Positions 12,956-51,634 of a stretch of 64,000 nucleotides of DNA are shown here, piece by piece (positions within the stretch are counted from its first letter, which is position 1; every line of letters starts with the position of its first letter). The notes under the pieces were generated by a model. The model was not told the DNA's origin and made no database searches. It saw only the letters and a list, made by a program, of their open reading frames with translations. The stretch is from Cetobacterium ceti (GTDB lineage Bacteria > Fusobacteriota > Fusobacteriia > Fusobacteriales > Fusobacteriaceae): assembly GCF_900167275.1 (NCBI RefSeq), contig NZ_FUWX01000014.1, positions 1-64,000 on the forward strand, read 5' to 3'. A program made the translations under genes and the position numbers.

Positions 12956-13606
12956 ATGCTAAATAAGCATAAAATAATTAATGAAATTTTAGAAGTTGGA
13001 GTGGTTGCAGTAATTAGAGCAGAAAGTATAGTGGAAGCAAAACGTATATCAGCAGCATGTATTGAAGGAGGAGTTAAAGCTATCGAGGTTACTTATACAG
13101 TACCTGGAGCTTCTGAGGTTATAAAAGAGTTGGGAAAAGAGTTTAATGAAAAAGAATTAATTGTTGGAGCAGGAACAGTATTAGATTCAGAAACAGCAAG
13201 AATAGCTATATTATCAGGGGCAAAATATATTGTCTCACCAGGATTTGATAAGGAAACAGCAAAGTTATGTAATAAATATGGAATACCTTATATGCCAGGA
13301 TGCATGACTATAAGTGAAATGACTAAAGCAATGGAATATGGAGCAGATATTATAAAATTATTTCCAGGAAGTGCCTTTGGAGCAGATTTTATAAAAGCAG
13401 TGAAAGCTCCTTTACCACAAGCAAATATTATGCCAACAGGAGGAGTATCAATAGAAAATGTTGATAAATGGATTAAAAATGGAGTTGTAGCAGTTGGAGT
13501 AGGAGGAAAATTAGCAACTGGACCTAGTGAAGAAATAACAGCTAATGCAAAGGAATTTGTAGCAAAAGTTAAAGCTACAAGAGAGGAGCTAAAAAATAAT
13601 GGGTAA
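12956..13606 (+). CDS. eda: 2-dehydro-3-deoxyphosphogluconate (KDPG) / 4-hydroxy-2-oxoglutarate aldolase
   Basis: 'VVAVIRAES...GGVKAIEVTYTVPGA...LIVGAGTVLD...KLFPGSA...PTGGVS': the Eda TIM-barrel signature with the Schiff-base Lys region. Confidence 0.85.
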   Translation: MLNKHKIINEILEVGVVAVIRAESIVEAKRISAACIEGGVKAIEVTYTVPGASEVIKELGKEFNEKELIVGAGTVLDSETARIAILSGAKYIVSPGFDKETAKLCNKYGIPYMPGCMTISEMTKAMEYGADIIKLFPGSAFGADFIKAVKAPLPQANIMPTGGVSIENVDKWIKNGVVAVGVGGKLATGPSEEITANAKEFVAKVKATREELKNNG

Positions 13607-14615
13607 AAAAATAGTTACTCTTGGGGAAATTATGTTGAGATTATCTACAATAGATAATAAAAGAATAATACAGTCTAATTCATTTCAAGCTGATTATGGT
13701 GGAGGGGAAGCCAATGTTGCAATTTCTCTTTCAAATTTTGGAATTGAAAGTTCTTTTATAACGAAATTACCTGAAAATTATTTAGGAGAATGTGTTTTAA
13801 GATATTTAAAAGCAAACCAAGTAAATACAAATAACATAGTTTTAGGTGGAGAGAGATTAGGAACATATTATTTAGAAGTTGGAAGTGGCGTTAGAAATTC
13901 CTCTGTTATTTATGATAGAAAATATTCATCATTTTCTACTTTAACATATGAGGAATTAAACGTAGAAAAAGCTTTAAAAGATGTTTATATTTTACATTTA
14001 TCTGGAATAACTCCAGCCCTTTCTGAAAGTTGCAAAGATTTAACTTTAAAAATTATAAAAAAAGCTAAAGAGATGGGAGTACTAGTTAGTTTTGATTTTA
14101 ATTTTCGTGGTAAATTATGGACTGTGGAAGAAGCAGGAAAAACTTTTAAAGAGTATTTGCCATATGTTGATATTTGTTTTGCAGGGATATTAGATGGAAA
14201 ATATATATTGAAATTAAATGTTGATGAAGAAAAATATGATTCATTTAGTGAAATTTTAAAAGCCTATTATAAAGAAATAAATACTATTTATCCTAATATA
14301 AAATATTTTATATCTACAAAAAGAGAAATCCATAGTGTGGATGATAATTCTTTAGAAGGATTTATTTATAGTAAAGGTTGTATATATAATTCGAAAAAAT
14401 ATAGGTTTTCAATAGTTGATAGAGTTGGTGGAGGAGATGCCTTTGCAGCTGGAGCTTTATATGGAATTATACAAGATATGAATTTAAAAGATACTGTAGA
14501 ATTTGCAACAGGAGCTTCTGTAATAAAGCATACAATTAAGGGAGATGCCAATTTAGTTAGTGTAGAAGAAGTAGAGAATTTCATTAAAAATGGAGCAGGA
14601 AAAATATCAAGATAA
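13599..14615 (+). CDS. kdgK: PfkB-family sugar kinase, 2-dehydro-3-deoxygluconokinase-like
   Basis: Overlaps the eda stop. N-terminal 'LGEIMLRL' and 'GGGEANVAISL'. C-terminal 'DRVGGGDAFAAGALYG' is the PfkB anion-hole/DTxGAGD-type motif. Confidence 0.75.
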   Translation: MGKKIVTLGEIMLRLSTIDNKRIIQSNSFQADYGGGEANVAISLSNFGIESSFITKLPENYLGECVLRYLKANQVNTNNIVLGGERLGTYYLEVGSGVRNSSVIYDRKYSSFSTLTYEELNVEKALKDVYILHLSGITPALSESCKDLTLKIIKKAKEMGVLVSFDFNFRGKLWTVEEAGKTFKEYLPYVDICFAGILDGKYILKLNVDEEKYDSFSEILKAYYKEINTIYPNIKYFISTKREIHSVDDNSLEGFIYSKGCIYNSKKYRFSIVDRVGGGDAFAAGALYGIIQDMNLKDTVEFATGASVIKHTIKGDANLVSVEEVENFIKNGAGKISR

Positions 14616-22359: not shown

Positions 22360-22687
22360 ATTATAATCCTCCCTTAAAATTTAAGTCAATCTAAAATAAT
22401 GAACAAAACTTATTATAACATGTTTATAAGAAAAAATTAAGAAATTAATAAAAAAAATTAATAAAATTTGTGAAAACAAAGTATATTTATGTAATAAAAA
22501 AAATGAAATAATTATAAAAAAAATGACACCAAAGAGACATTTTGTGAAAAAGTTGACAATATGTCGTGAAAATCTAAAAAAAAGCAGAAATCTCATGAAA
22601 GTATACTATATTAATATCATAACAAAGCTATTATAATAAAATTGTGTACAAAATACAGTGTACAAGAACCAACAGAAAGGAATTATT

Positions 22688-23416: not shown

Positions 23417-23450
23417 TAAATATTACATAAAAGCGGAGGAGAAAAAGAAT

Positions 23451-24017: not shown

Positions 24018-24105
24018 TAAAAAAGTAATTTATAGAATGGGGTAGTTATCTCACAGGATGACTACCTTTTTATATAAATTATACCTTTTGAAAAGGAGAT
24101 GAATA

Positions 24106-24831: not shown

Positions 24832-24834
24832 AAT

Positions 24835-27492: not shown

Positions 27493-28028
27493 TTATAATG
27501 ATATTTATAATTTTTATAAATATATTAACCTTTGGAGCAAATACAAAAATCTTAGATATTCATGATAAAAGTTTACCTAAAATTAAAGAAGAGGATATTC
27601 CAAAAGTTCCAGGGCTTCCAAATAAAGATATGGAAGAAAAAAATAATAAGGGAGAAATTATTGGAATTAGAAAATTAGAAAAAAATACTACTGTAATGAT
27701 GGAAGCACAGGTTAAAGTAGTAGTTCCCTTAGAAATTTTATCAGATATAGATATAAATACTGTGATTATAGATGATGAAAAGGCAACAGTTCCCTTTGAT
27801 ATAGAATTAAATAAAAAACCTGATAAGGAAAATTATTATAAAATAAACTTTAGTCAAAAAGATATTGATATTGATAATGATGGGAAAGTGGATACTAAAA
27901 TATACTCTCCAGATTATATAAATACAAAAATTGTAAAAGGAAATTATGTAACTGTTGATGGAGCTAATATTTCAAAAGAGGGAACACATAAGAAAACTAT
28001 TTATATGACTATAGGAGTGAGGGAATAG
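27480..28028 (+). CDS. Minor pilus subunit (SCPU-like)
   Basis: RBS aaggaga and signal peptide. The start overlaps the usher stop. C-terminal 'GTHKKTIYMTIGV' has the SCPU-like alternating pattern. Confidence 0.45.
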   Translation: MVKLIIMIFIIFINILTFGANTKILDIHDKSLPKIKEEDIPKVPGLPNKDMEEKNNKGEIIGIRKLEKNTTVMMEAQVKVVVPLEILSDIDINTVIIDDEKATVPFDIELNKKPDKENYYKINFSQKDIDIDNDGKVDTKIYSPDYINTKIVKGNYVTVDGANISKEGTHKKTIYMTIGVRE

Positions 28029-28481
28029 ATGATAAAAAAAATTATTTTTTCTTTTATGTTTATTAATTTAATAGCATTTGGAGAAATTCATATAAAAATA
28101 TTTCAACCTTTAAGATTTAATAATGTTAATACTCGAAGCATAAGTGAAAGTGATAGTGTAATTGGAGAAGGAATTTTAGAAATTTCCACTGATAATTTAA
28201 AAGAAGATGAAGGGAAAGAATTGGCATTTCTTTTTCCTCAAAAGGGCCTTATGACAAATCGGAAAAAATGGGTGAAAATAGATAGTTATTATATGGATTT
28301 AAAAGATAAAAAATTAATTATTGATAGAGAAACTGTACAAGTTAAATTTTATGCTAAATTAGATCGAGATAACTTTAGAAAACCAGGAGAAGATCCAGAG
28401 ATAGTTGAAGGGGATTATATAGGATATGTTCCTATTATTGTATCCCAATATAGTAAACTAGAAAATAGGAGTGACTCATGA
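28029..28481 (+). CDS. Minor pilus subunit (SCPU-like)
   Basis: ATG immediately after the upstream TAG. Signal peptide. C-terminal 'EGDYIGYVPIIVSQY' has the SCPU G-D-Y-x-G motif. Confidence 0.45.
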   Translation: MIKKIIFSFMFINLIAFGEIHIKIFQPLRFNNVNTRSISESDSVIGEGILEISTDNLKEDEGKELAFLFPQKGLMTNRKKWVKIDSYYMDLKDKKLIIDRETVQVKFYAKLDRDNFRKPGEDPEIVEGDYIGYVPIIVSQYSKLENRSDS

Positions 28482-31400
28482 AAATAATTATAATTTTTTT
28501 ATATATGATTTTAGGAATTACTAATATTTATGGTCAAAAAGAAATTCCCCATGAAACTATATTAGATAACCCTAAAGCAAAAATAACTACAATAGAGACG
28601 AAGAAACAAAAAGAAAAAGCAACCTTAAATATAACCGTTACTAAAATAAAAAGTAAAAATATAAATATAGAAGTTAATCCGAATAAAAAAATATTACTCT
28701 GTAATTTAAACGAAAATAATGTAAAGATTAATAAAAATGAACAGGTATTTTTTGTTGAAAATATTCAAGATATTCCAACAACAAGTACCATTAATGGAGA
28801 GCGAAGATTAAATCATTTGAGAAATCAGATGCTTTTTAGAAGTGCTGGAGTAGTAGCAGATAATGAACTTACATATAATTCTAATCCTGAGGAAAATAAG
28901 GATGGACATAAGATTGTTAGGGTTGAATATAAAAATGAACCTAAAAAGCTCTATATGGCCGTTTTAGACAATACAGGAGCTTTAAAAAGTGTATATAATG
29001 CTAACTTTAAATTAGCAGAAAGAATTAAAACTAAAGAAACGACCTTAAAAATATGGCTATTTAAAGGAGAAATGAAACATAGTAGTATAAATCTTATTTT
29101 TGACCCTAGTGAAAATAGTAGTGGAGATTTTAAAACTAGATCTTTAGAAGATGTTACTCCACCTGACCAGGCTGATAAAGCGCCTAATATTCATGATTCT
29201 GTTTTTGACTTTAATAATGATGGATTATTACATCAAAACTTTTTAGATACGGATATTTTAGAAGTAACAAATAATACAGGACAAGTTATTTCTAATAATG
29301 TTCAAGGTAGTTTTGAAAAATCAAATTATAAAAAAATTAAATTAAATATAAAGGGATTAGATATTAATTCGGTTATTTGGAATAGTTTTAAAGGATTAGA
29401 GTTAGATATCAGCAATCTTTCTAGGGTTCATATTAATTCACAAAAATTAGAATTTAATATTCTTCATTACTCTGGTGGAAGACAACTAAGACAAAAAATA
29501 CATGTGATTATATATTACAATGATGGAGTTTTAGCAGATCATATTACAGAAAGCAATACAAATTACAATTCCAATGATATTGAAAATTTTGATAGTATTC
29601 CAGATGGAACTATTATTAATCTTCCAACATTAAATAGAAAAGAAATTATATGGGGATTAAAAGATTTTGCAACAGAAGATTTGGATATGGAAGATTTTCA
29701 AAATAATAAAATTATAAATGATTTTTTAAATAAAACATTTTATGATAATAGTATTGACGATATTAATGGAATTAGAACTTTTATTCCTAGAAATTCTATC
29801 GTAAATGGAACAATTACAAATATTACTTTTCCATTAAAAAAAATATATTATACAAAAGAAGATAATAGTATTCAACCTTTAAGATTTACCTTCTTTCAAT
29901 TTTCATATGGAAATAATAAAAGAACGATAACTCCTACTTTTACTTTCTCAATTTATAATAAAGTAAAGAGTATTCCTTATACAGAAAATTTAAATATTAT
30001 AAATGTTCCTATATTAAATAAATTTATAATGTCTGAGGATAATAAAGGCATTTATAATAATGAAGTGCAATATGCAACAGGACATATTAGAATATATGAT
30101 AATCCAGATTATGAAACAGTCTATTTTGAAACAAATAATAAATATAAAACTACCTTACGTAATGGTGATAATCATTTAAGTCCGATAGAATTTACTGATA
30201 ATGTCGGAAATATTTATGAATTAGCACAAGATACAAAGGATACACAATTTATAAGCTATAGAATTAGAACTTTAAAATATAATTGGCAAAATCGATCTGA
30301 TGGAGAAATCAAATTTAAAATAACAATGAAGAGAAGCGATGGCTTTACATCTATTTATTCTTGTAAAATTTTGACAAAAGCTTTTAATCCATTATTTTTA
30401 TATAATAATACAAATTCTACTATAAAAATAAATGATAATAAATCTTTAAAAATTTTTAAAACTATAGAACAAAAAGATATTACTAGTCAAAAGGATTTAG
30501 AAATAGATTTAGGTAAAGTATATTTTTCTAAATTTGAAAGTTTAGATGCTTTAAATTTAAATTCTGAAAACATGTATATGAAATTATTAGAACAATGTAA
30601 TTTAATAAGTTCTTCTGGAAAACATCTACAAATGAAATTAAAATTTAAATATAAAAATAATCATCTAAATATTAAGGAAAATTCAGCAACATTAATTGGA
30701 ATAATTAATGCTAAAGATGTTGGAAATTTATTAGATAATCAAGATGAAAATATTTTTTATCTAGTTAAAGATATAAATAAAAATATATTACAAATATTTG
30801 TGGATAAGCAACAAGAAAGTATAGTTAAGGAATTGGAAATTCATATTTTAAAAATAAATCCAGAAGTAATTAATATTAAATATAATCGACCTGTTATTGG
30901 TAAAGAATTTATTTCATTATCTAACAATAAATATATTAGCATGAATAAAATTCCTGAATATTATGATATGCAGGGAAGTTCTCATTATATGACTATTGAT
31001 GTAGATAATCAAAATGTATATTCAGATGAAAAGTATACAAATAAAGCAATTAAAATTCCTTTAGATGATGAAAATTCTATTCAAATTGGATATACTCAAA
31101 AAGGAGCAATTCAACTTAATTTAACCAAATGGAATTATAAACCAATTAATAAAACCATTTATATTAAACATTATAATTATGGACATACTGGAATTAAATT
31201 TTATTATGAGTTACATTTATATGTTCCTCCTTTTGATCCATTGGATTATATTGAATCTATGAAATTTAATACATCTATAATACCACAAAGAGATAAAAGA
31301 ACTTACGAATTAGGAACAATTGTTTTAAAAAATACTAATAATAATATTACGATAAGAAAAGATATCCTAAAAGATAAACATGGACTAAGACTTATCTTTG

Positions 31401-32458
31401 GAAAGGTTAGTTTAATTGATTCTAATGGAGATATCTATATAAATGCAGCTAGAATAAGATTAAAATCCCAAAAAGAAGTCTTTTTCACACAACAACAGGG
31501 GAAAAAATTAATCTTTGATATTGATTTACCTAAAAATTTAGATACAACAAAAACTTATACTATTTTATCTAAATTAGATGAAAATACAATTAATGATATT
31601 GTTAATACTCCAGAAAATAAAATTACTAATTATAATATTGCTATAGGTCGAAATCATTTCTTTAGAGAATTGCTACCTAAAATTACGATAAAACCTCAAT
31701 CTTATATAAGTGGAGAATCAACTTTAATTTTTAAACCTGCATATACAAAGGGGAGATTTATAACATTTAATGGTGTTAATTTACAAGATAATTTTAAACT
31801 TTCATTATCTAATATAGATGATTCCTTTTTTGTAGACTTACCTGAAGATAAAAATAAAGGAAATGGATTAATTAAAATGAAAGATGGAGATATTTTAAAA
31901 ATAAACTCTTCAGAATATACTATTAAAAATGGAAAATTAATACCTCAGCATATCTTTTTTAAAGAAAATAATATTAAATTATTATTTAAGGTTGAAAATG
32001 GAAATTTAGCTTTAGCCTTAGAGCAATGGGCTTTAACTTCACAAAAAAATCTAGATTTAAATATAGAAATTAAAAGAAATAATAAATTAATATGTTTACA
32101 TAAAATAGACTTAATAGTTCCAAATTCATTTTTTAGAGTTCTAGAAGAAAATCCAATGGATTTTGGAGCAATTATTCAAGGTCAGAAAAATATTAATGCA
32201 AAAGGAAATATTTTATTTGAAACAACTCCAGGAACTAATATTCAAGTATCCTTAAGTAATTTAGATAAAAATAATAGTTTAAAAATAAAACATGAGAACT
32301 CTGATATTTTAACTGTAAAAGATATTAATTCTTATACAACATCAGAAGGAAATAATCTCTATAGAACTAATGTAAGAGGATCTCTGTCTGTTCCAGAACA
32401 TCAGACTATAGGAAATTATAAAGGAAAAATAATGGTAAATATCAGTATTAAACAATAA
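28478..32458 (+). CDS. Giant (1326-aa) putative tip adhesin subunit of the pilus system
   Basis: ATGA start/stop overlap with the upstream gene (translational coupling). Signal peptide MKIIIIFLYMILGITNIYG. β-rich, N/K/T-rich, no recognised domain. Its extreme C-terminus 'TIGNYKGKIMVNISIKQ' carries the same G-x-Y-x-G-x-h-x-h-x-h motif as the other subunits. Confidence 0.5.
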   Translation: MKIIIIFLYMILGITNIYGQKEIPHETILDNPKAKITTIETKKQKEKATLNITVTKIKSKNINIEVNPNKKILLCNLNENNVKINKNEQVFFVENIQDIPTTSTINGERRLNHLRNQMLFRSAGVVADNELTYNSNPEENKDGHKIVRVEYKNEPKKLYMAVLDNTGALKSVYNANFKLAERIKTKETTLKIWLFKGEMKHSSINLIFDPSENSSGDFKTRSLEDVTPPDQADKAPNIHDSVFDFNNDGLLHQNFLDTDILEVTNNTGQVISNNVQGSFEKSNYKKIKLNIKGLDINSVIWNSFKGLELDISNLSRVHINSQKLEFNILHYSGGRQLRQKIHVIIYYNDGVLADHITESNTNYNSNDIENFDSIPDGTIINLPTLNRKEIIWGLKDFATEDLDMEDFQNNKIINDFLNKTFYDNSIDDINGIRTFIPRNSIVNGTITNITFPLKKIYYTKEDNSIQPLRFTFFQFSYGNNKRTITPTFTFSIYNKVKSIPYTENLNIINVPILNKFIMSEDNKGIYNNEVQYATGHIRIYDNPDYETVYFETNNKYKTTLRNGDNHLSPIEFTDNVGNIYELAQDTKDTQFISYRIRTLKYNWQNRSDGEIKFKITMKRSDGFTSIYSCKILTKAFNPLFLYNNTNSTIKINDNKSLKIFKTIEQKDITSQKDLEIDLGKVYFSKFESLDALNLNSENMYMKLLEQCNLISSSGKHLQMKLKFKYKNNHLNIKENSATLIGIINAKDVGNLLDNQDENIFYLVKDINKNILQIFVDKQQESIVKELEIHILKINPEVINIKYNRPVIGKEFISLSNNKYISMNKIPEYYDMQGSSHYMTIDVDNQNVYSDEKYTNKAIKIPLDDENSIQIGYTQKGAIQLNLTKWNYKPINKTIYIKHYNYGHTGIKFYYELHLYVPPFDPLDYIESMKFNTSIIPQRDKRTYELGTIVLKNTNNNITIRKDILKDKHGLRLIFGKVSLIDSNGDIYINAARIRLKSQKEVFFTQQQGKKLIFDIDLPKNLDTTKTYTILSKLDENTINDIVNTPENKITNYNIAIGRNHFFRELLPKITIKPQSYISGESTLIFKPAYTKGRFITFNGVNLQDNFKLSLSNIDDSFFVDLPEDKNKGNGLIKMKDGDILKINSSEYTIKNGKLIPQHIFFKENNIKLLFKVENGNLALALEQWALTSQKNLDLNIEIKRNNKLICLHKIDLIVPNSFFRVLEENPMDFGAIIQGQKNINAKGNILFETTPGTNIQVSLSNLDKNNSLKIKHENSDILTVKDINSYTTSEGNNLYRTNVRGSLSVPEHQTIGNYKGKIMVNISIKQ

Positions 32459-42683: not shown

Positions 42684-42700
42684 ATATTTAAATTATTTAA

Positions 42701-42730
42701 AGGTCTAGAAATTTTCTAGATCTTTTTTTT
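42701..42730 (+). terminator. Rho-independent terminator
   Basis: gtctagaaa-tt-tttctagat hairpin followed by T8. Confidence 0.65.
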
Positions 42731-42822: not shown

Positions 42823-45096
42823 ATGAAAAAAACTTTATTATTTTTATTTTTTATACTTATGGGAACTTTAAGTTTTAGTGAAAATTTACAAGAAAATGAA
42901 TATGAAATAATTATAAAGCGATTTAATACTTTAAATAATTATGCAGTTAATGATGAAAAAATATCTCAACTCTTAAATAATTTAAATTCTAAAAAAGAAA
43001 AAACATATCTTTGGCCTGAATATTCTAATATGAAAAATGGACCAGATATTCTTTTTACTTATAGAAATATAACTGAATTGGCAAAGGGATATTCCAATTC
43101 CAATTCTAAATATTATAAAAATAAAAAATTAAAAAATACTATTTTAAATTCATTAAATTGGATGAAGAATAATGCTTATAAAGAAAATTTCCCTGAATTA
43201 GGAAACTGGTGGCAATGGGAAATTGGTATTCCTAAGGATTTAAATAAAATTATTTCTTTTATGTATGAAGATTTAACTCCTAAAGAAAGATTAAGTTTTT
43301 TAAAAGGTAGCCAATATTTTCAACCTTACGCCAATTGGTCTGGATATAGTCCTAGTGCTAAATTCTCATCAAACCCAGAAAAAAGAGTTTCAACTGGAGG
43401 AAATAGAATTGATACATCTCTTATAGTTTTTATGAGAGGAATTCTTTTAAATAATTCTGAAGAAGTCCAAGAAGCTCTTAAATCTATTCCAGATGTAGGT
43501 GATTTCGTTGAAACAGGAGATGGGTTTTATAAGGATGGTTCCTTTATTCAGCATGAATCTATTCCCTATGGTGGCACTTATGGAGCTGTTCTCCTAGGAG
43601 GTCTTGGTATTATTCAAAACTTAGTTGCAAATACTTCCCTTGAAATTAAAGATCCTCGTTTTAATAATATTTATGATTCTATTATCAATGGGTATAATTA
43701 CCTACTTATTGACGGACGTATATCTGATTCTATAAGTGGAAGAGCTGTTACTAGACCAAATACCAATGATATGACCAGAGGAGAAGAAAATTTAATTGCT
43801 ATTGCCATGATTTCTCAAGGAGCACCTAAAGAATATAAATATAAATTGCAAGAAATTGTAAAAAGGAATATTGAAGAAAATAATTTAGTTTATCTTCCTG
43901 CTAAAATTAAAAATCCTGTAGAAAAAGAAGTTATTGAAAGTATTTTAAAAAATGATGATATATTAACTCATGAACTTATAGGAAGTAAAAATTTTGGAAA
44001 TATGGATAGATTTGTAAATAGAAATAAAAACTATTCCTTTATTTTAAGTATGCATTCTTCTAGAATTGGTAATTTTGAAAGCATTCTTGGAGAAAATTTA
44101 AAGGGATGGCATAGTTCTGATGGGATGTATTATATTTATACTCAAAAGCAAAATGAATATTTTGAATATTGGCCTACTGTAAATCCATATAGACTTCCTG
44201 GTACTACAGAAAGTTTAACTACTAGAAAAGATGTGAGTGGTCAAAGAAGAATAAAAAAATATATGGTACAAAAAGATTTTGCCGGTGGAGCTTGTGATGG
44301 ATTTAATTCTATGATTGGTATGGATTTTTCTTCTTGGAATGATAAAACAACAGGAAAAAAATCATGGTTTATTTTAGATAATAAAATTATTGCTTTAGGA
44401 AGTGATATAAATAGTACTGATGGTATTGTCAATACAACAATCGAAAATAAAATTATAGATTCTAAGGAAGATATAATTAAAAATACTGAAGATACTTTAA
44501 TCATTAAAAATGATAAATCTAATTTATATTCTGGATATTTTATTTTGGATAAAAATAAATTAAATAATATTTTAGATGAACGAATAGGATCTTGGAAGGA
44601 AGCTGGAGGAAAAGGTTCAAATAAAAAAATATTTAAAAAATATATTACATCTTATATTAATCACGGAGAAAATCCTAAAAATAATTCTTATGAGTACATT
44701 ATTATTCCAGAAGTTAAAGAAAATATTTTAAATAATTTTAATAAAAATTCTATTCATATTTTAAGTAATAATAAATTTGCTCAAGGAGTTGAATTTAAAA
44801 ATATTTTTGGAATAAATTTCTTTGAAGGATCAGATAAAAAAGTTAAAAATTTCATTGGGAAAACTCCTTTAAGTTTAATCGGTCATTCCAATGGAAATAA
44901 TTTAAATTTATTTATCTCTGATCCTACCCATAAAAATCAAGAGGGTATAATCTTAGAAATAATAGGATCTTATTCCTTAGAAAATAAAATTTCAAATGTA
45001 GATATTAATTATGAAAAAGATAAAACTATTTTAACAATTAAAAATTTAAAAAATGGAGAAAGCATAAAAGTTTCATTAGTAAAAAATAAAAAATAA
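42823..45096 (+). CDS. Polysaccharide lyase family 8 enzyme (hyaluronate / chondroitin-AC-lyase-like), secreted
   Basis: RBS aaaggaga and signal peptide. 'NWWQWEIGIPKDL' corresponds to the PL8 N-W-W-x-W/Y-E-I-G motif in the (α/α) toroid. 'GGNRIDTSL' and 'HESIPYGGTYGAVLLGG' carry the catalytic Asn/His/Tyr regions. β-sandwich C-terminus. Confidence 0.75.
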   Translation: MKKTLLFLFFILMGTLSFSENLQENEYEIIIKRFNTLNNYAVNDEKISQLLNNLNSKKEKTYLWPEYSNMKNGPDILFTYRNITELAKGYSNSNSKYYKNKKLKNTILNSLNWMKNNAYKENFPELGNWWQWEIGIPKDLNKIISFMYEDLTPKERLSFLKGSQYFQPYANWSGYSPSAKFSSNPEKRVSTGGNRIDTSLIVFMRGILLNNSEEVQEALKSIPDVGDFVETGDGFYKDGSFIQHESIPYGGTYGAVLLGGLGIIQNLVANTSLEIKDPRFNNIYDSIINGYNYLLIDGRISDSISGRAVTRPNTNDMTRGEENLIAIAMISQGAPKEYKYKLQEIVKRNIEENNLVYLPAKIKNPVEKEVIESILKNDDILTHELIGSKNFGNMDRFVNRNKNYSFILSMHSSRIGNFESILGENLKGWHSSDGMYYIYTQKQNEYFEYWPTVNPYRLPGTTESLTTRKDVSGQRRIKKYMVQKDFAGGACDGFNSMIGMDFSSWNDKTTGKKSWFILDNKIIALGSDINSTDGIVNTTIENKIIDSKEDIIKNTEDTLIIKNDKSNLYSGYFILDKNKLNNILDERIGSWKEAGGKGSNKKIFKKYITSYINHGENPKNNSYEYIIIPEVKENILNNFNKNSIHILSNNKFAQGVEFKNIFGINFFEGSDKKVKNFIGKTPLSLIGHSNGNNLNLFISDPTHKNQEGIILEIIGSYSLENKISNVDINYEKDKTILTIKNLKNGESIKVSLVKNKK

Positions 45097-45117
45097 TTAT
45101 AATGGGGGAATATTTTA

Positions 45118-48042
45118 ATGCTAAAAAAATTATGGGGAACAATGTTTCTTTTAAGTTCTATTTATTCTTATGGAACAACTATATATCAATTTGAAAATGG
45201 AATTCCTAAAAATATAAAATCTATAAATACATCTCGATTAAAAATTACCAATGAAAAATATAAAGATGGTAATCATTCACTTAAGTGGAATTTCAATAAA
45301 AATGATTCTATTTCTATTTTAGGAGATGTTGGCTATTCAACATTTAAAGATGGAGGCAAAGAAAAAGCTCGTTCAAGTTATTCCATGTGGATTTATAATA
45401 AAAAACCCATTGACGATAAACTTATAGTACAATTTAAAAAAAATGGAATTGTAAAAACATCTTTTCCAATTAATATGAATTTCACAGGTTGGAGAACAAT
45501 GTGGGTTCAATATGATAGAGATATGACTGGAACCCCTGAAGAAGGTATGGATGAAATTACCTTTATAGCTCCAAATACTTCTGGAGAAATATTAATAGAT
45601 CAAGTAATTCCATCTGTTTTAATCGATCCTAGACATAATGCAAGAGATGAACAAGTTCCTTTTGTTAATCTTCCAGCAGATGACGCTGTTAATGCTCATT
45701 GGATGGCTCTTTACAAAAACTATAATCTTATAAAATATCATAAAGATAATAAACCTTTAACAGAAAAAGAAATAGTTAGTATAAAATCTATTGAAGATAA
45801 ATTTTTTAATGAAATTATAAAAAAAGTTTCTGTTAATAAAGATATAATCGAAAAAAAGAAAGAACAATTAAAGGAATATAAAAAGATAAATTTAGAATTT
45901 ATCAAACGTTTAGTTATTTATAAAAATATAACGTCTGAAGAAAGAGAAAATATAAAATATGTTCCTACTAAAGAATTTGGAATATTTCTTCGAGAGTTAG
46001 GCTATATGTATCATTCTACTAATAATATTAAAGAAAAAAATGAAATATATTCAATATTCCAAAATGCATTAAATTATATGTATGATCAAGGTTGGACAAA
46101 GGGAAGTTCTCAAGGAACAATACACCATTTAGGTTACCAATTCAGAGAAATTTATCAAGGTGTATTTCTTATGAAAACTCCTCTTTTAAAAAATAATAAT
46201 TTAGAAAAAGCTAGAGAAATGGTAACTTGGTACAGTGCAATGGGAATTATTTATACTGATCCAAACTCTATGAGAGGAATAAATATTGATATTTTAAATA
46301 CAATGCTTCCTGGAATGTTAACTGCTATTTTATTAAATGATAATATAAATAAGGAAGCACAGGAACTTACTCAGTTTAATAAATATTTAACTAAAGCTAT
46401 AACCTATTCTCCTGGAGTTATTGGTGGTTTTAAAAAAGATGGTTCTGTTTTTCATCATATGCAAAATTATCCTGCCTATGGAAAAGGAGCTTTTGAAGGA
46501 TTAACTCCTATTATTTACTATTTAGGAGGAACTCCCTATGGTATAAAAGGTGTAGCTTATAATATTGTAAAAAATTCTCTTTTAATGTCTAGAATTTATT
46601 CTAATAAATTTAATTATTTACTAACTTTAACAGGACGTCATCCTAACAATAAATTTAAAATTGATGATAGTGGATTTAAATATACCGCTCTTGGTGGAGA
46701 GAATGGAGTTGATAAAGAGCTAGCAGAAGCTTATTTAAGACTTACTCCAAACGGAAAAGATGCCAATAAATTTAAAAATTTAGGTTTTTCACCCGAAAAA
46801 GCTCCTAATGGTTCTTGGACTATGAATATGGGATCTTTACAACTTCATAGACGTGGGGAATGGTTGGCTGGAGTTAAAGGTTATAGTCGTTATTTAGTTG
46901 GTAATGAGACTTATATTAAAAATAATCTTTTTGGAAGATATATGAGTTATGGAACTTTCCAAATTCTCCAAGATTCATTAGAGCAAAGTGGATTTGTTCA
47001 AGAAGGATGGAATTGGTCTCATTATCCAGGAACAACTGCTATAAATCTTCCTTTAGATAAATTAAAATCTAATATTTCTCAAGTTGATATTTATAGCGGA
47101 GTAGAAGAAATGCTTCTTTCTGATGAAACTTATTCTGGAGGAAATTCATTAAATGGTAATGGAATGTTTGCTATGAAGTTACATGAGCATCCAAAATATA
47201 ATGGTAGTCATAGAGCTAGGAAATCTGTATTTTTCTTTGATAATAGAGCTATTCTATTAGGAAGTAATATTGAAAATAATGATGCTATCCATGAAACACA
47301 TACAACATTGTTTCAAAATTATTTAGGACAAAATAATATTATTAAGGAAAATAAAATTTATAAAGAAAATACCCTTTTATTAGATAGTCAAAATAATCTT
47401 TATAAAATAAAAAATAATGAGGTAGTTTATTCTAAAGATTTACAACATTCTTTAGATCAAAATACAGGAAAACCTACTAAAAATAATTTTGAACTTGCTT
47501 ATATAAATCATGGAAAATCACCTAAAAATGGAACTTATGAATATGCTATTTTAATAAAAGGTGATAAAAAATCTCAAAGAAATTTTGAAAAAAATAGTAA
47601 CTATAAAGTTTTAAATCAAGATTATTCTTCTCATATTGTTGAAGATAATATTTCAAAAATGAGAGGGTATGCTTTCTTTGAAAAAAGTTCTTTACAAAAT
47701 GATAAATTTATAAAAACAATTGATACTCCATCTTTAATACTATTATCTCCAGAAAAAGATACTTTAGATATTAGTTTTGTAGATCCAGATTTAAGATTAT
47801 ATGAGGGAATTGATAAAAGTCAATATGACAAAAATGGACTTATGAAAGAGGTTAGTATTTACTCTAGAAATTGGAAAGGTAATGATGGCTTACCTCATAC
47901 CTCTACTCTTACTTTAAAAGGAAAATATAAATTAAAAATAGGAAAGAATGTTAAATTAAAAACTGACAAAAATAATACTATTTTAGAAATTACATCTACT
48001 TATGGAACTCCTGTAAAAATAAAATTAATAAAAACAAAATAA
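45118..48042 (+). CDS. Second, larger PL8-family glycosaminoglycan lyase paralog (chondroitinase-like)
   Basis: Signal peptide. Paralogous blocks shared with the upstream lyase, e.g. 'YINHGKSPKNGTYEYAIL' versus 'YINHGENPKNNSYEYIII', and 'GVIGGFKKDGSVFHHMQNYPAYGKGAFEG' versus 'GDGFYKDGSFIQHESIPYGGTYGAV'. Confidence 0.65.
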   Translation: MLKKLWGTMFLLSSIYSYGTTIYQFENGIPKNIKSINTSRLKITNEKYKDGNHSLKWNFNKNDSISILGDVGYSTFKDGGKEKARSSYSMWIYNKKPIDDKLIVQFKKNGIVKTSFPINMNFTGWRTMWVQYDRDMTGTPEEGMDEITFIAPNTSGEILIDQVIPSVLIDPRHNARDEQVPFVNLPADDAVNAHWMALYKNYNLIKYHKDNKPLTEKEIVSIKSIEDKFFNEIIKKVSVNKDIIEKKKEQLKEYKKINLEFIKRLVIYKNITSEERENIKYVPTKEFGIFLRELGYMYHSTNNIKEKNEIYSIFQNALNYMYDQGWTKGSSQGTIHHLGYQFREIYQGVFLMKTPLLKNNNLEKAREMVTWYSAMGIIYTDPNSMRGINIDILNTMLPGMLTAILLNDNINKEAQELTQFNKYLTKAITYSPGVIGGFKKDGSVFHHMQNYPAYGKGAFEGLTPIIYYLGGTPYGIKGVAYNIVKNSLLMSRIYSNKFNYLLTLTGRHPNNKFKIDDSGFKYTALGGENGVDKELAEAYLRLTPNGKDANKFKNLGFSPEKAPNGSWTMNMGSLQLHRRGEWLAGVKGYSRYLVGNETYIKNNLFGRYMSYGTFQILQDSLEQSGFVQEGWNWSHYPGTTAINLPLDKLKSNISQVDIYSGVEEMLLSDETYSGGNSLNGNGMFAMKLHEHPKYNGSHRARKSVFFFDNRAILLGSNIENNDAIHETHTTLFQNYLGQNNIIKENKIYKENTLLLDSQNNLYKIKNNEVVYSKDLQHSLDQNTGKPTKNNFELAYINHGKSPKNGTYEYAILIKGDKKSQRNFEKNSNYKVLNQDYSSHIVEDNISKMRGYAFFEKSSLQNDKFIKTIDTPSLILLSPEKDTLDISFVDPDLRLYEGIDKSQYDKNGLMKEVSIYSRNWKGNDGLPHTSTLTLKGKYKLKIGKNVKLKTDKNNTILEITSTYGTPVKIKLIKTK

Positions 48043-48048
48043 AAACTA

Positions 48049-48076
48049 AAGTCAGAGATTTTTCTCTGACTTTTTG
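48049..48076 (+). terminator. Rho-independent terminator after the lyase pair
   Basis: agtcagaga-tttt-tctctgact hairpin followed by TTTTT. Confidence 0.75.
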
Positions 48077-48089
48077 TTATAATTTTTCT

Positions 48090-48362
48090 ATGAGAAATTG
48101 GTATATATATTTATTACGTTGTAAAGATAATAGTCTTTATACAGGAATAACAACAGATGTTGAGAGAAGATTTAAAGAACACAAAGAGGGAAAGGGAGCT
48201 AAATATACAAAAGCTAAAGGAGTTATAAATATTGAAAAAATTTTTTCTGTTGAAAATAAATCTACTGCTCTTAAATTAGAATATAAAATAAAAAAATTAA
48301 CAAAAAAATATAAAGAAATTTTAATTAAATATGATAAATCTATTGTTGATTTTTTTTCTTAA
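48090..48362 (+). CDS. GIY-YIG nuclease-domain protein (UPF0213 / YazA-like)
   Basis: 'WYIYLLRCKDNSLYTGITTDVERRFKEHKEGKGAKYTK' is the GIY-YIG core with conserved R and E. Confidence 0.75.
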   Translation: MRNWYIYLLRCKDNSLYTGITTDVERRFKEHKEGKGAKYTKAKGVINIEKIFSVENKSTALKLEYKIKKLTKKYKEILIKYDKSIVDFFS

Positions 48363-48415
48363 ATAATATAACCTATAGGCACTGGTCTAGACCAGAATAC
48401 TTATGGGGGTATCTT

Positions 48416-49057
48416 ATGGAAAATATAAAGAAAATTTTAAGGAAAAAACAAGCCATTGAAATAGTTAATATTTTAAATGAGAATGGCTATCGAGGTATTT
48501 ATGCTGATTCCTTAGAAGAAGCTAAAAAAATTATACTAAATACTATTCCTTTAAAATCAACAATCGGTCTTGGGGGATCAGTTACTATAAATGAGTTGGA
48601 CCTTATAAGAATATTTAAAGAAGGGGATTACAATTTATTTGATAGATACAATCAACCTGATTGGCCTAGTACAGTTCAATGTATGAGAGAAGCTTTATTA
48701 GCTGATTATTTTATAACTAGTACAAATGCTATAAGTAAAAATGGTGAACTTATTCAAGTAGATTCTGGGGGAAATAGAGTGGCTAGTCTTCTTTATGGCC
48801 CTAAAAATGTAATTGTAGTTACTGGAATCAATAAAGTTGTTAATACTCTAGAAGATGGTATTGAAAGAATAAAAACTTATGTTGCTCCTTTAAATTCAAA
48901 AAGAATAAATCATAAAACTCCTTGTAATCTGTCTGGTCAATGTGAAAATTGTACCACCAAACAAAGAATATGTAACTATACATCTATAATAAAAAATGGA
49001 GAAAGAATGGGAAATCGAATTACTGTTATTGTTATTAGTGAAAAGGTGGGATATTAA
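48416..49057 (+). CDS. LUD-domain (LutC/YkgG-like, DUF162) protein
   Basis: 'IGLGGSVTINELDL...FITSTNAISKNGELIQVDSGGNRVASLLYGPKNVIVVTGINKVV' is the LUD fold pattern. A C-terminal Cys cluster is present. Confidence 0.55.
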   Translation: MENIKKILRKKQAIEIVNILNENGYRGIYADSLEEAKKIILNTIPLKSTIGLGGSVTINELDLIRIFKEGDYNLFDRYNQPDWPSTVQCMREALLADYFITSTNAISKNGELIQVDSGGNRVASLLYGPKNVIVVTGINKVVNTLEDGIERIKTYVAPLNSKRINHKTPCNLSGQCENCTTKQRICNYTSIIKNGERMGNRITVIVISEKVGY

Positions 49058-49650
49058 TGGATGTAAATATAAAATGGCTAAATCAAAAAAAAGCAGAAAA
49101 TATTACAAGAGTACTTTTAGGACAAGAGTATGAAACTATATTAGTAAATTCTTTAGATGAAATTAAAACTATTCTTTTAAATAAAATTCCAAAAGAAGAA
49201 TCTATTATACTAGGTGATTCTTGTGTTTTAGAAGATTTAAATTTAATTGATGCTTTTTATAAAAATGGTAATTATATTTTTAATTATCAACATGAACCAT
49301 CCTTAGAAATCAAACAAGAAATAAGACGTCAAGGTCTTTTAGCTGATACTTTTATAACTGAAATTGATTTTGTTACAGAACAAGGGGAGCTTATCTTACA
49401 AGGTGGTTTTTCTAATTGTGCTAGCATCTTTGGTCCTAATAAAATTTATGGAATCATCGGAATAAATAAAATAGTAAAAAATCTAAAAGATGCTGAAATT
49501 AAATCTCAATTAATTTTAGAAGCAAATAGCTTTAGAGAAAAATCTTATTATGATAAAGATTTGTATAATAACTTAGGAATTATCCATAATGGAAAAAAGT
49601 TTCCTAATAAATATACTCTATTTGTTTTAAATGACTCTTTAGGATTTTAA
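49057..49650 (+). CDS. LUD-domain protein, tandem paralog
   Basis: ATG overlaps the upstream stop. 'FITEIDFVTEQGELILQGGFSNCASIFGPNKIYGIIGINKIV' parallels the upstream paralog. Confidence 0.5.
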   Translation: MDVNIKWLNQKKAENITRVLLGQEYETILVNSLDEIKTILLNKIPKEESIILGDSCVLEDLNLIDAFYKNGNYIFNYQHEPSLEIKQEIRRQGLLADTFITEIDFVTEQGELILQGGFSNCASIFGPNKIYGIIGINKIVKNLKDAEIKSQLILEANSFREKSYYDKDLYNNLGIIHNGKKFPNKYTLFVLNDSLGF

Positions 49651-50211: not shown

Positions 50212-50227
50212 CAGCCACTTTTTTTAT
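50193..50227. terminator. Bidirectional terminator hairpin (aagtggct...agccactt with flanking A- and T-runs)
   Basis: Read directly; it overlaps the 3' end of the flavodoxin gene and abuts the tsx-like stop. Confidence 0.55.
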
Positions 50228-51069
50228 TAAAACATTATTGAATAATGTATTCCCACCGATTGGGAATTTTTATTTGAAGAGTAATTATTAACTTGTGAAA
50301 AATGATTGTTTATTTGATACGTATAACTTACCGATATATTTTTAGTAAAATAAAATCTTAATTGATTTTGCCACTGTAGGCTATCATGTGTTTCTTTTGA
50401 AGATCCATGTCTAGCTCCAAAATCATAATCTAACCAACCGCTAAATCCTAATTTCATTCCATTTTCAAATTGATAAAAACTACCACCATAGGCCATATTA
50501 AATAAATACCCATCCCATTTTTTTTCATTTCTACTATAATTTTTATCTATATATCTAGCATAAATATTTGTTTTAAAATAATCAAATTTTAAATATTTCA
50601 TTTGAGGTATATTTAAATAATTTCCTATTCCTATATAATGTTTCTCTATCCCTTTATTTTTACCCCATTCAACTCCTCTAACATTATCATAATCAAATTG
50701 ATAAGCTATAAACCATTCTTTAACTGGTCCTATTGATAAATTCTTATTTAATAATCCATCTAAAGAAATTCTTGGATTAAATTCTCCATAGGTATAATTT
50801 TTTTTTTCATGATCTTTATTTTTATCGCTCAAGTCTGAATCTTTAAATATATTAGAACGATCAACAAACCAATATAAATCTAGTAGGTCATATCTTGTTG
50901 TTCCTTGTAATTCAAATATAGTATCTTTTCCTGAAGCACCATATCCATTTGGTAATCCATTACTTTTTATTAAACTTCCCTCTAATACTGTAAAATTCCA
51001 TGGAGCATATTCTCCAAAAGATAGTGTTGATAACCCTATTGTTCCCCCAAGTATAATTTTTTTTAGCAC
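50227..51069 (-). CDS. tsx: Tsx-family nucleoside-specific outer-membrane channel
   Basis: Signal peptide. 'LSIGPVKEWFIAYQFDY' closely parallels E. coli Tsx 'LSFGPFKEWYFANNYIYD'. β-barrel ends '...HYSIMF'. Confidence 0.7.
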   Translation of the reverse strand: MLKKIILGGTIGLSTLSFGEYAPWNFTVLEGSLIKSNGLPNGYGASGKDTIFELQGTTRYDLLDLYWFVDRSNIFKDSDLSDKNKDHEKKNYTYGEFNPRISLDGLLNKNLSIGPVKEWFIAYQFDYDNVRGVEWGKNKGIEKHYIGIGNYLNIPQMKYLKFDYFKTNIYARYIDKNYSRNEKKWDGYLFNMAYGGSFYQFENGMKLGFSGWLDYDFGARHGSSKETHDSLQWQNQLRFYFTKNISVSYTYQINNHFSQVNNYSSNKNSQSVGIHYSIMF

Positions 51070-51083
51070 ATTTCCTCCCCATT

Positions 51084-51467
51084 TTATTTTCCTATTCCAT
51101 TTTTACCTGAATTTATAATATTTCTTATAGCATTTTGAAAACTATTATTATTATTTCGCTCTTCAATAGCTTCTACAATCATAGGCAAATTGCAACCATA
51201 TAAAACTTCTATATTTTTAGTTAATATTTCTTTTAAGGAAGTTGATATATTATAAGGAGTCCCCTTTTGTATGTCTGTTATTAATAAAATATCTTCATAG
51301 GGCAATTCATCTATAGAACTTTTTAATTTTTCTTTAAATATTTCTGGAGTATCTCCTTCTCTATATGTAATATATTTAATGTCTTTAAATACTCCTAAAC
51401 ATAATTCAATAGCTTCTTGTAATCCATTTGCAAAACTTCCATGTCCTGTAATGACAATCCCAAACAT
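51084..51467 (-). CDS. PTS EIIA component, mannose/fructose/sorbose family (stand-alone)
   Basis: 'MFGIVITGHGSFANGLQEAIELCLG' is the EIIA-Man N-terminus with the phospho-His. Start set at the internal ATG downstream of ggaggtg. Confidence 0.7.
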   Translation of the reverse strand: MFGIVITGHGSFANGLQEAIELCLGVFKDIKYITYREGDTPEIFKEKLKSSIDELPYEDILLITDIQKGTPYNISTSLKEILTKNIEVLYGCNLPMIVEAIEERNNNNSFQNAIRNIINSGKNGIGK

Positions 51468-51634
51468 CAATATCACCTCCATAAAAATATAGTTGTTAAT
51501 AATTTATATATTAAAAAAAAAAATCTGTCAATTCAATTATTATTTATTTGCTTTATTATTAAAGATGAGGTAATAAATATATTAATAAATTTTATAGTTT
51601 CTTTTTTATAGTATAAAAGAGGGAGGTAATATTC

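What the first reader, a model, noticed from the sequence alone, without database searches (positions are those of the whole stretch)
42823..48042. Tandem secreted PL8-family glycosaminoglycan lyases (hyaluronidase/chondroitinase-like)
Two paralogous secreted proteins (772 and 974 aa) carry the PL8 'NWWxWEIG' region and conserved catalytic-region blocks. Their C-terminal blocks are paralogous ('YINHG..PKN.(S/T)YEY'). PL8 hyaluronate/chondroitin lyases are host-matrix-degrading virulence or nutrition factors and are not a universal Fusobacterium trait. Their presence, together with eda/kdgK elsewhere in the window, suggests capacity to grow on host glycosaminoglycans.
Basis: partly seen in the sequence, partly recalled or inferred. 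Interest (0 to 1): 0.5.

Follow-up and report, generated by a model that had tools for sequence, protein, structure and literature searches.

The report
Two-gene glycosaminoglycan lyase operon, Cetobacterium

Summary
Gene A (42823-45096, 757 aa) and gene B (45118-48042, 974 aa) are intact, co-directional and 21 bp apart. Terminator-like hairpins flank the pair, and each product has an N-terminal signal peptide. A has the hyaluronate/chondroitin-AC-type PL8 architecture and keeps the Asn/His/Tyr/Arg/Glu catalytic residues. B is a chondroitinase-ABC-type PL8 enzyme (E 2e-178 to PDB 2Q1F) and keeps all listed catalytic residues.

- The NWWxWEIG motif is only in A.
- A and B are 24% identical, so they are distant subfamily relatives, not a recent tandem duplication.
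- The organism is Cetobacterium ceti, not Fusobacterium.

Both proteins are exact matches to public records already named 'hyaluronate lyase' and 'chondroitin-sulfate-ABC endolyase/exolyase'. The C. ceti genome submission that holds A and B also holds GH88. In a second C. ceti strain GH88 lies with KduI, KduD, sulfatases, ABC permeases, an AraC regulator and a heparinase-II/III-like lyase. Eda and a KDG-kinase-like gene are in the window. Glycosaminoglycan foraging is therefore well supported genomically, but no enzyme activity has been tested.

Verdict: a new, uncharacterised member of a known kind; low interest. The more novel lead is the neighbouring LUD-domain gene pair, which travels with GH88 loci in several phyla.

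The parts
42699..42725 (+). Terminator-like hairpin after the upstream amino-acid permease gene. It marks the 5' boundary of the lyase transcription unit.
   Evidence: 12-pair stem followed by a T-run; sequence.
42823..45096 (+). Gene A: a 757-aa PL8 lyase of the hyaluronate/chondroitin-AC type. The signal peptide is MKKTLLFLFFILMGTLSFS|E. Catalytic residues are N194, H244, Y253, R307 and E419; the NWW patch is at 128-130.
   Evidence: Pfam Lyase_8_N/Lyase_8/Lyase_8_C. S. pneumoniae hyaluronate lyase 7.7e-88. Residue mapping. Exact match to SJZ90020.1 'hyaluronate lyase [Cetobacterium ceti]'. dN/dS 0.097 against a second strain.
45118..48042 (+). Gene B: a 974-aa PL8 lyase of the chondroitinase-ABC type. 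The signal peptide is MLKKLWGTMFLLSSIYSYG|T. Catalytic residues are H337, D391, H447, Y454, R507 and E597.
   Evidence: Pfam Lyase_N/Lyase_catalyt/Lyase_8. PDB 2Q1F 2e-178 over residues 23-972, and 1HN0 3e-93. Residue mapping. Exact match to SJZ90048.1 'chondroitin-sulfate-ABC endolyase/exolyase'. dN/dS 0.10.
48048..48073 (+). Terminator-like hairpin 6 nt after the stop codon of B. It marks the 3' boundary of the A-B unit.
   Evidence: 11-pair stem followed by a T-run; sequence.
48416..49650 (+). Two paralogous LUD-domain genes (213 and 197 aa). They are syntenic with PL8/GH88 genes across Cetobacterium and Fusobacterium. Their role is unknown, and they are linked to the lyases by synteny only.
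   Evidence: Pfam PF02589. Synteny in L002, L003, L010, L017, L064, L065, L088. AF2 model and fold search.
12956..14615 (+). eda (KDPG/KHG aldolase) and a PfkB kinase resembling KDG kinases. These would carry out the last two steps of unsaturated-uronate catabolism. They lie 28 kb upstream of the lyases.
   Evidence: Pfam Aldolase and PfkB. NCBIfam NF005119 is above its cutoff; the KDG/KDGal kinase models are the best matches but fall below their cutoffs.

Best explanation
A and B form a two-gene operon in Cetobacterium ceti that encodes two Sec-exported PL8 polysaccharide lyases with complementary substrate ranges.

A is of the hyaluronate-lyase/chondroitin-AC type. It most likely cleaves hyaluronan and low-sulfated chondroitin. 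B is of the chondroitinase-ABC type. It most likely cleaves chondroitin sulfates A and C, dermatan sulfate and hyaluronan.

Both work by beta-elimination. An Asn (A) or Asp (B) neutralises the uronate carboxylate, and His/Tyr abstract the C5 proton and protonate the leaving O4. The products are delta-4,5-unsaturated disaccharides.

The products are then processed by genes at a second locus, seen in a second C. ceti strain. An ABC transporter imports them, sulfatases remove sulfate, and GH88 splits them. KduI and KduD convert the unsaturated uronate to KDG. The window's KDG-kinase-like gene and eda then turn KDG into pyruvate and glyceraldehyde-3-phosphate.

Shown here: family, domain architecture, catalytic residues, operon signals, purifying selection, and presence of the downstream genes. 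Inferred: substrates, extracellular versus periplasmic location, and actual growth on glycosaminoglycans.
For: - Domain architectures.
- End-to-end homology to solved PL8 lyases: A to S. pneumoniae hyaluronate lyase at 7.7e-88 and Arthrobacter chondroitin AC lyase at 3.9e-74; B to B. thetaiotaomicron chondroitin ABC lyase 2Q1F at 2e-178.
- Catalytic residues are conserved. The residue list for 2Q1F, and its HA/CS/DS substrate range, come from PMC12088678.
- Operon signals: a 21-bp gap with an RBS before each ATG, and flanking terminator-like hairpins.
- Signal-peptide-like N-termini, no lipobox Cys and no other hydrophobic segment.
- dN/dS of about 0.1 between two C. ceti strains.
- GH88 is in the same genome submission (SJZ70172.1) and in the same sequencing run as the exact B protein (DRR658122).
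- A second C. ceti assembly carries the A-B pair (L008) and a locus with KduI, KduD, AraC, two sulfatases, two ABC permeases, a Hepar_II_III lyase and GH88 (L009).
- In C. somerae, A-like and B-like genes flank a contiguous cluster of sulfatase, binding proteins, permeases, KduI and KduD, with GH88 nearby.
- The gene content matches the experimentally studied Streptobacillus moniliformis glycosaminoglycan cluster (PMC5430744).
Against: - No enzyme activity or growth data exist for any Cetobacterium lyase in the searched literature.
- A scores far below the NCBIfam equivalog cutoffs: HylB 396 against 1350, chondroitinase AC 145 against 1000. It matches xanthan lyases almost as well as hyaluronate lyases (1.2e-81 against 7.7e-88). 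Its substrate assignment therefore rests on genomic context.
- A lacks two substrate-contact residues of the pneumococcal enzyme (F343 is E186, N580 is L422).
- No solute-binding protein or ATPase for the importer was seen in the 21 kb of the second C. ceti locus.
- No route across the outer membrane is evident. The autotransporter-like genes that precede PL8 genes in relatives are absent from the window.
- No shared regulatory motif links the scattered loci.
Confidence: 0.85

Rival explanations
1. The lyases stay in the periplasm and trim imported oligosaccharides, as the periplasmic chondroitin lyases of Bacteroides do. They would not be released or surface-exposed matrix-degrading (virulence-type) enzymes. 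This changes the location and the ecological reading, not the enzyme family.
For: The only targeting feature is a type-I Sec signal. There is no lipobox, anchor, CBM or autotransporter domain. In relatives, HL-type PL8 genes are immediately preceded by autotransporter-beta-domain genes (L002, L003, L010, L020). No such gene is in the window. From memory: the close homologues of B in B. thetaiotaomicron are periplasmic.
Against: Polymeric hyaluronan or chondroitin sulfate cannot cross an outer membrane unaided, and no other depolymerase or SusCD-like importer was seen. The Streptobacillus model places PL8 lyases outside the cell (PMC5430744). The location was not tested here.
Confidence: 0.3
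2. Gene A is not a glycosaminoglycan lyase. It acts on another glucuronate-containing polymer such as xanthan-like side chains or other microbial or algal polysaccharides.
For: Its PDB matches to Paenibacillus and Bacillus xanthan lyases (1.2e-81, 1.3e-73) are nearly as strong as those to hyaluronate lyases. It is below all NCBIfam equivalog cutoffs. F343 and N580 of the pneumococcal enzyme are not conserved.
Against: In every relative examined, A-like genes sit with GH88, sulfatases, KduI/KduD and a chondroitinase-ABC gene. Here A is co-transcribed with a chondroitinase-ABC homologue. The host organism is animal-associated. No xanthan-specific accessory genes were seen.
Confidence: 0.07
3. 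The pair is a decaying remnant of a larger cluster and is no longer functional.
For: The locus is reduced compared with C. somerae and with the SF1 plasmid. It lacks the autotransporter-like gene, the second PL8 gene and the transporter/KduID block next to the lyases.
Against: Both ORFs are full length with all catalytic residues. They have an RBS and terminators. dN/dS is about 0.1 between strains. The missing genes are present elsewhere in a C. ceti genome.
Confidence: 0.03

Closest known systems
Streptococcus pneumoniae hyaluronate lyase (PDB 1C82/1EGU and the mutant series 1N7N-1N7R)
   Same: Gene A aligns over residues 45-675 (E about 1e-87). It has the same alpha-toroid plus beta-sandwich architecture. 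N349/H399/Y408/R462/E577 and the W291/W292 pair are conserved.
   Different: A has no cell-wall anchor or extra N-terminal modules. F343 is Glu and N580 is Leu. It scores far below the NCBIfam HylB equivalog cutoff. The host is a diderm, so export is to the periplasm first.
Bacteroides thetaiotaomicron chondroitin sulfate ABC lyase (PDB 2Q1F)
   Same: Gene B aligns end to end (residues 23-972, E 2e-178). It has the same three-domain layout. H345, D398, H454, Y461, R514 and E628 are all conserved (residue roles from PMC12088678).
   Different: The genomic setting is different. There is no SusC/D-type PUL. B is co-transcribed with an HL-type PL8 gene. The mode of action (endo or exo) and any metal dependence are untested.
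Proteus vulgaris chondroitinase ABC I (PDB 1HN0, 7EIP)
   Same: Same family and architecture. The H501/Y508/R560/E653 tetrad is conserved in B.
   Different: It is a more distant relative (317 bits against 599 bits for 2Q1F).
Streptobacillus moniliformis glycosaminoglycan genetic cluster Smon0115-0127 (PMC5430744)
   Same: Same phylum and the same parts list: PL8 lyases, a PL12-like heparinase II/III protein, sulfatase, GH88, KduI, KduD, ABC permeases, KdgK and KdgA.
   Different: In C. ceti the genes are split over at least three loci instead of one cluster. One of the two PL8 enzymes is of the chondroitinase-ABC type rather than a second HysA. An AraC regulator and a LUD-domain pair are present. 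The binding protein and ATPase were not located.
Cetobacterium somerae cluster (CP143319.1, L002; NZ_CP173065.2, L024) and Cetobacterium sp. SF1 plasmid p5 (NZ_CP188324.1, L010); both uncharacterised
   Same: These hold orthologous A-type/PL8 genes, B-type genes and the LUD pair. SF1 has the same direct A-to-B adjacency (A 62% and B 71% amino-acid identity).
   Different: C. somerae has about 8 kb of sulfatase, transporter and KduI/KduD genes between the two lyases. SF1 carries the module on a replicon labelled a plasmid, with autotransporter-like genes and a second PL8 gene. Neither feature is in the C. ceti window.

Membership tests
CAZy PL8, hyaluronate/chondroitin-AC/xanthan-lyase type (gene A) | N-terminal alpha/alpha toroid (Lyase_8_N), a central beta super-sandwich (Lyase_8) and a C-terminal beta domain (Lyase_8_C) | tested here: met
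   Pfam 1.7e-81, 6.8e-66 and 3.8e-05, all above the gathering scores.
CAZy PL8, hyaluronate/chondroitin-AC/xanthan-lyase type (gene A) | Catalytic Asn, His, Tyr, Arg and Glu at the positions seen in solved enzymes | tested here: met
   N194, H244, Y253, R307 and E419 align with N349, H399, Y408, R462 and E577 of the S. pneumoniae enzyme. The residue roles are from memory of the structural literature.
CAZy PL8, hyaluronate/chondroitin-AC/xanthan-lyase type (gene A) | Assignment to a specific characterised orthologue (HylB or chondroitinase AC equivalog) | tested here: not met
   NCBIfam HylB 396 bits against a cutoff of 1350; chondroitinase AC 145 bits against 1000. The family is certain; the exact specificity is not.
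CAZy PL8, hyaluronate/chondroitin-AC/xanthan-lyase type (gene A) | Beta-eliminative cleavage of hyaluronan or chondroitin | not testable with these tools
   This needs an enzyme assay.
Chondroitinase ABC type PL8 (gene B) | Three-domain layout: Lyase_N, Lyase_catalyt and Lyase_8 | tested here: met
   Pfam 1.3e-50, 1.7e-75 and 9.4e-26. End-to-end alignment to 2Q1F at 2e-178.
Chondroitinase ABC type PL8 (gene B) | His/Tyr/Arg/Glu tetrad, plus the second His and the Asp neutraliser that allow both uronate epimers to be cleaved | tested here: met
   H447, Y454, R507, E597, H337 and D391 align with H454, Y461, R514, E628, H345 and D398 of 2Q1F, and with H501/Y508/R560/E653 of 1HN0. H345, D398, H454 and Y461 are listed in PMC12088678; the Arg/Glu roles are from memory.
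Chondroitinase ABC type PL8 (gene B) | Activity on chondroitin sulfates A and C, dermatan sulfate and hyaluronan | not testable with these tools
   This needs an enzyme assay.
Fusobacterial glycosaminoglycan utilisation system (Streptobacillus type) | GH88 unsaturated glucuronyl hydrolase in the same genome | tested here: met
   SJZ70172.1 is in the same C. ceti accession series as A and B. It is also in the same sequencing run as the exact B protein.
Fusobacterial glycosaminoglycan utilisation system (Streptobacillus type) | KduI/KduD, sulfatase, and KdgK/KdgA | tested here: met
   KduI, KduD and two sulfatases lie next to GH88 in C. ceti assembly GCA_053747295.1 (L009). That is a second strain, which carries a 97-98% identical A-B pair (L008). 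The eda and KDG-kinase-like genes are in the window.
Fusobacterial glycosaminoglycan utilisation system (Streptobacillus type) | Complete binding-protein-dependent ABC importer | tested here: inconclusive
   Two permease genes are present in L009. No binding protein or ATPase was found in the 21 kb seen.
Fusobacterial glycosaminoglycan utilisation system (Streptobacillus type) | All genes in one contiguous cluster | tested here: not met
   The lyases, eda/kdgK and the GH88-KduID-transporter block are at three separate places.
Secreted proteins | Cleavable Sec signal peptide | tested here: inconclusive
   A basic n-region, a hydrophobic core and small-x-small sites (SFS|E, SYG|T) were read by eye and from a hydropathy profile. 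No dedicated predictor was available. Passage across the outer membrane is unknown.

The most novel reading that the evidence does not exclude
The lyase operon belongs to a wider conserved module. Its two neighbouring LUD-domain proteins (48416-49650) may carry out an undescribed step in the catabolism of glycosaminoglycan-derived unsaturated uronates or their amino sugars. They are auto-named 'lactate utilization protein'. LUD1, the one analysed in detail, has four invariant cysteines and an RpiA/eIF2B-like sugar-phosphate-binding fold. LUD genes of this subfamily sit next to GH88 genes in Fusobacteriaceae, in a Clostridium, in a spirochaete and in an unassigned metagenome contig.
Probability: 0.3. 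Interest if true: 0.55.

Novelty: new member of a known kind. Interest (0 to 1): 0.2.

Why it matters
It shows that Cetobacterium ceti, a gut and gill commensal of marine mammals and fish, has the genes to depolymerise hyaluronan, chondroitin sulfate and dermatan sulfate and to catabolise the products. That is useful for interpreting its niche. It extends the Streptobacillus-type glycosaminoglycan system to another fusobacterial genus. It opens no new question about the lyases themselves, because family, mechanism and annotation are already established. The only lead with wider reach is the unexplained LUD-domain pair that co-occurs with GH88.

Tried and rejected
- **Shared regulatory motif.** I searched the upstream regions of A, eda, LUD1, the EIIA gene and the two promoter regions of the second C. 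ceti locus. Only AT-rich chance matches appeared.
- **GGTCTAGA word.** This 8-mer occurs in the hairpin upstream of A and in the dyad upstream of LUD1. It occurs 4 times against 0.88 expected, but 2 of 100 shuffles reach that count and two of the hits are one palindrome. I judged it not significant.
- **Plasmid collection.** A protein search with B found only distant chondroitinases (35-37% or less) in Proteus, Vibrio and Bacteroides records, and nothing fusobacterial.
- **Sigma-70 promoter scan.** It found fewer sites than the shuffles (45 against 53.8), so it gave no usable promoter call. By eye there is a weak TTTACT-N16-TGgTAATAT upstream of A.
- **LUD proteins.** A PDB sequence search and NCBIfam returned no significant match.
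- **Outer-membrane partner.** I looked in the window for homologues of the autotransporter-like genes that precede PL8 genes in relatives. There are none.
- **C. ceti in the genome collection.** The genome-collection scan with B did not return C. ceti itself, so the second locus had to be reached through GH88 homologues instead.
- **Tandem duplication.** I rejected this reading because of the 24% identity and the different N-terminal domains.
Full report
**What is in the sequence.** The interval holds two co-directional ORFs, 42778/42823-45096 and 45118-48042. The first most likely starts at ATG 42823, nine bases after a GGAG. That gives 757 aa, the length of the public gene calls. The second gene starts 21 bp after the first stops and has a GGGGGA ribosome-binding site. 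A terminator-like hairpin follows the upstream permease gene (42699-42725). Another lies 6 nt after the stop of the second gene (48048-48073). The anatomy is that of a two-gene operon.

**Source organism.** Both proteins are exact matches to Cetobacterium ceti records: SJZ90020.1/WP_078694350.1 'hyaluronate lyase' and SJZ90048.1/WP_078694351.1 'chondroitin-sulfate-ABC endolyase/exolyase'. The window is therefore C. ceti (Fusobacteriaceae, about 26% G+C), not Fusobacterium.

**Gene A.**
- Pfam finds Lyase_8_N (1.7e-81), Lyase_8 (6.8e-66) and Lyase_8_C (3.8e-05).
- The best solved relatives are S. pneumoniae hyaluronate lyase (7.7e-88), Paenibacillus xanthan lyase (1.2e-81), Arthrobacter chondroitin AC lyase (3.9e-74) and S. 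agalactiae hyaluronate lyase (1.7e-71).
- In the residue-level alignment, N194, H244, Y253, R307 and E419 match the pneumococcal N349, H399, Y408, R462 and E577. N128-W129-W130 match N290-W291-W292. F343 is Glu186 and N580 is Leu422.
- NCBIfam scores are far below the equivalog cutoffs for HylB and chondroitinase AC. The family is certain, but the precise substrate is not.

**Gene B.**
- Pfam finds Lyase_N, Lyase_catalyt and Lyase_8, which is the chondroitinase-ABC architecture.
- It aligns end to end with the B. thetaiotaomicron chondroitin ABC lyase 2Q1F (2e-178) and with P. vulgaris chondroitinase ABC I (3e-93).
- H337, D391, H447, Y454, R507 and E597 match H345, D398, H454, Y461, R514 and E628 of 2Q1F.
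- PMC12088678 lists H345, Y461, H454 and D398 as the catalytic set of 2Q1F. It gives HA, CS and DS as substrates, and assigns H454 the role that allows iduronate-containing dermatan sulfate to be cleaved.

**Relation between A and B.** They share 24% identity over the catalytic and beta-sandwich regions (E 1e-16) and have different N-terminal domains. They are distant members of one family, not a recent tandem duplication. The 'YINHG..PKN.(S/T)YEY' block is in both. 'NWWQWEIG' is only in A.

**Export and selection.** Both N-termini have a basic start, a hydrophobic core and a small-x-small site, with no cysteine lipobox and no other hydrophobic segment. This was read by eye and from a hydropathy profile, because no dedicated predictor was available. 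In a diderm it shows export to the periplasm only. Between the window and a second C. ceti strain (L008), dN/dS is 0.097 for A and 0.10 for B, so both genes are under purifying selection.

**Surroundings in the window.** The immediate neighbours are not glycosaminoglycan genes. Upstream lie an FAD/FMN oxidoreductase, a GDPD phosphodiesterase and an amino-acid permease. Downstream lie:
- a 90-aa GIY-YIG protein;
- two LUD-domain proteins;
- a flavodoxin;
- a Tsx-like channel;
- an orphan EIIA whose best match is AgaF, below its cutoff.

. The eda gene and a KDG-kinase-like PfkB gene lie at 12956-14615.

**The rest of the pathway.**
- A search with the C. somerae GH88 found two C. ceti GH88 proteins at 76% identity. 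One, SJZ70172.1, belongs to the same accession series as A and B. It also occurs in the sequencing run that contains the exact B protein.
- In assembly GCA_053747295.1, one contig carries the A-B pair at 97-98% identity (L008). Another carries sulfatase, KduI, KduD, a 719-aa AraC regulator, a second sulfatase, two ABC permeases, a heparinase-II/III-like lyase and GH88 (L009).
- The binding protein and ATPase of the importer were not seen.
- The parts list matches the experimentally studied cluster of Streptobacillus moniliformis, another member of the phylum (PMC5430744). In C. ceti, however, it is split over at least three loci.

**Comparative context.**
- B-type genes at 59-71% identity occur in other Cetobacterium species, in Fusobacterium perfoetens, in Fusobacterium sp. 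SB021 and in several MAGs. Some of those MAGs are labelled with non-fusobacterial genera such as Clostridium, Sarcina and Actinobacillus. The next relatives, at 33-44%, are in Paenibacillus, Neobacillus, Vallitalea and Bacteroidales.
- In C. somerae the A-like and B-like genes flank a block of sulfatase, binding proteins, permeases, KduI and KduD, with GH88 and AraC nearby.
- The direct A-to-B adjacency recurs in Cetobacterium sp. SF1 on a replicon labelled plasmid p5. There it is followed by an autotransporter-like gene, a second PL8 gene and the LUD pair.

**Literature.** No paper in the searchable library reports a Cetobacterium PL8 enzyme or glycosaminoglycan degradation by this genus. A 2026 C. 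ceti genome paper does not mention these genes.

**Side observation.**
- The LUD pair is syntenic with PL8/GH88 genes in all Cetobacterium and Fusobacterium loci that I examined.
- Of five sampled LUD1 homologues outside Cetobacterium, four lie within 8 kb of a GH88 gene: a common gut Fusobacterium, a Rectinemataceae spirochaete, Clostridium cavendishii and an unassigned metagenome contig. The fifth, from Clostridium gasigenes, does not.
- LUD1 has four invariant cysteines.
- Its confident AF2 model (pLDDT 93) matches the LutB LUD domain and DUF162, then ribose-5-phosphate isomerase and eIF2B folds.
- No paper in the library mentions a LUD-type term together with a GH88 term.

**Verdict.** The finding is correct in substance and needs only minor corrections. 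It is an uncharacterised member of a thoroughly known enzyme family and is already annotated as such in public databases. Interest is low. The unexplained LUD-GH88 association is the only element that might repay further work.

Noticed in passing
window 48416-49057 and 49057-49650: Two paralogous LUD-domain genes (auto-named 'lactate utilization protein', with no LutA partner) follow the lyase operon. They are syntenic with PL8/GH88/KduI/KduD genes throughout Cetobacterium and Fusobacterium. Four of five sampled homologues outside Cetobacterium also lie within 8 kb of a GH88 gene. LUD1 has four invariant Cys (C170/C176/C179/C186), and its AF2 model resembles the LutB LUD domain and RpiA/eIF2B folds. 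No paper in the library pairs a LUD-type term with a GH88 term.
   Followed up: partly
window 48382-48395; L010 12686-12699: A perfect 14-bp dyad, CTGGTCTAGACCAG, lies about 20 nt upstream of LUD1. Cetobacterium sp. SF1 has CTGGTACGTACCAG at the same position: the arms are conserved and the centre differs. The pattern TGGT-N4-ACCA occurs only once in the window. It could be an operator or a 5' hairpin.
   Followed up: partly
L003 8094-9992; L010 154-1095 and 6542-10183; L002 4666-9984; L020 16883-19828: In relatives, each HL-type PL8 gene in these four loci is immediately preceded by a gene for a large protein with an autotransporter beta-domain; where gene calls were available the gap is 8-17 bp. 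These proteins are homologous to one another in their C-terminal halves. They may be an outer-membrane partner for export or display of the lyase. No homologue is in the C. ceti window.
   Followed up: partly
L010 (NZ_CP188324.1, Cetobacterium sp. SF1 plasmid p5): The same A-to-B adjacency and the LUD pair sit on an 88-kb replicon labelled a plasmid. A DUF1097 gene lies next to them there; its homologue (73% identical) is at window 1173-1628. The C. ceti contig (77.8 kb) might be a similar accessory replicon.
   Followed up: no
window 48090-48362: A 90-aa stand-alone GIY-YIG protein gene occupies the position where Cetobacterium sp. SF1 has an autotransporter-like gene and a second PL8 gene.
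   Followed up: no
window 50227-51069 (-) and 51084-51482 (-): A Tsx-like outer-membrane channel sits next to an orphan mannose-family EIIA. The EIIA's best NCBIfam match is AgaF, the GalNAc/GalN PTS IIA subunit (94.7 bits against a cutoff of 130). No EIIB, EIIC or EIID gene is nearby. The pair is present in both C. ceti strains, but not next to the module in SF1.
   Followed up: no
L009 8001-9989: The second C. ceti locus encodes a 662-aa Hepar_II_III_N/C protein that weakly resembles HepC, directly upstream of GH88. This suggests heparan-sulfate-type substrates may also be used.
   Followed up: partly
window 22658-32458: A run of seven co-directional ORFs, including proteins of 885 and 1326 aa. 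Six have no Pfam hit at all, and the 885-aa protein has only matches below the gathering score. An AraC-type regulator is encoded divergently upstream (21121-22359).
   Followed up: no
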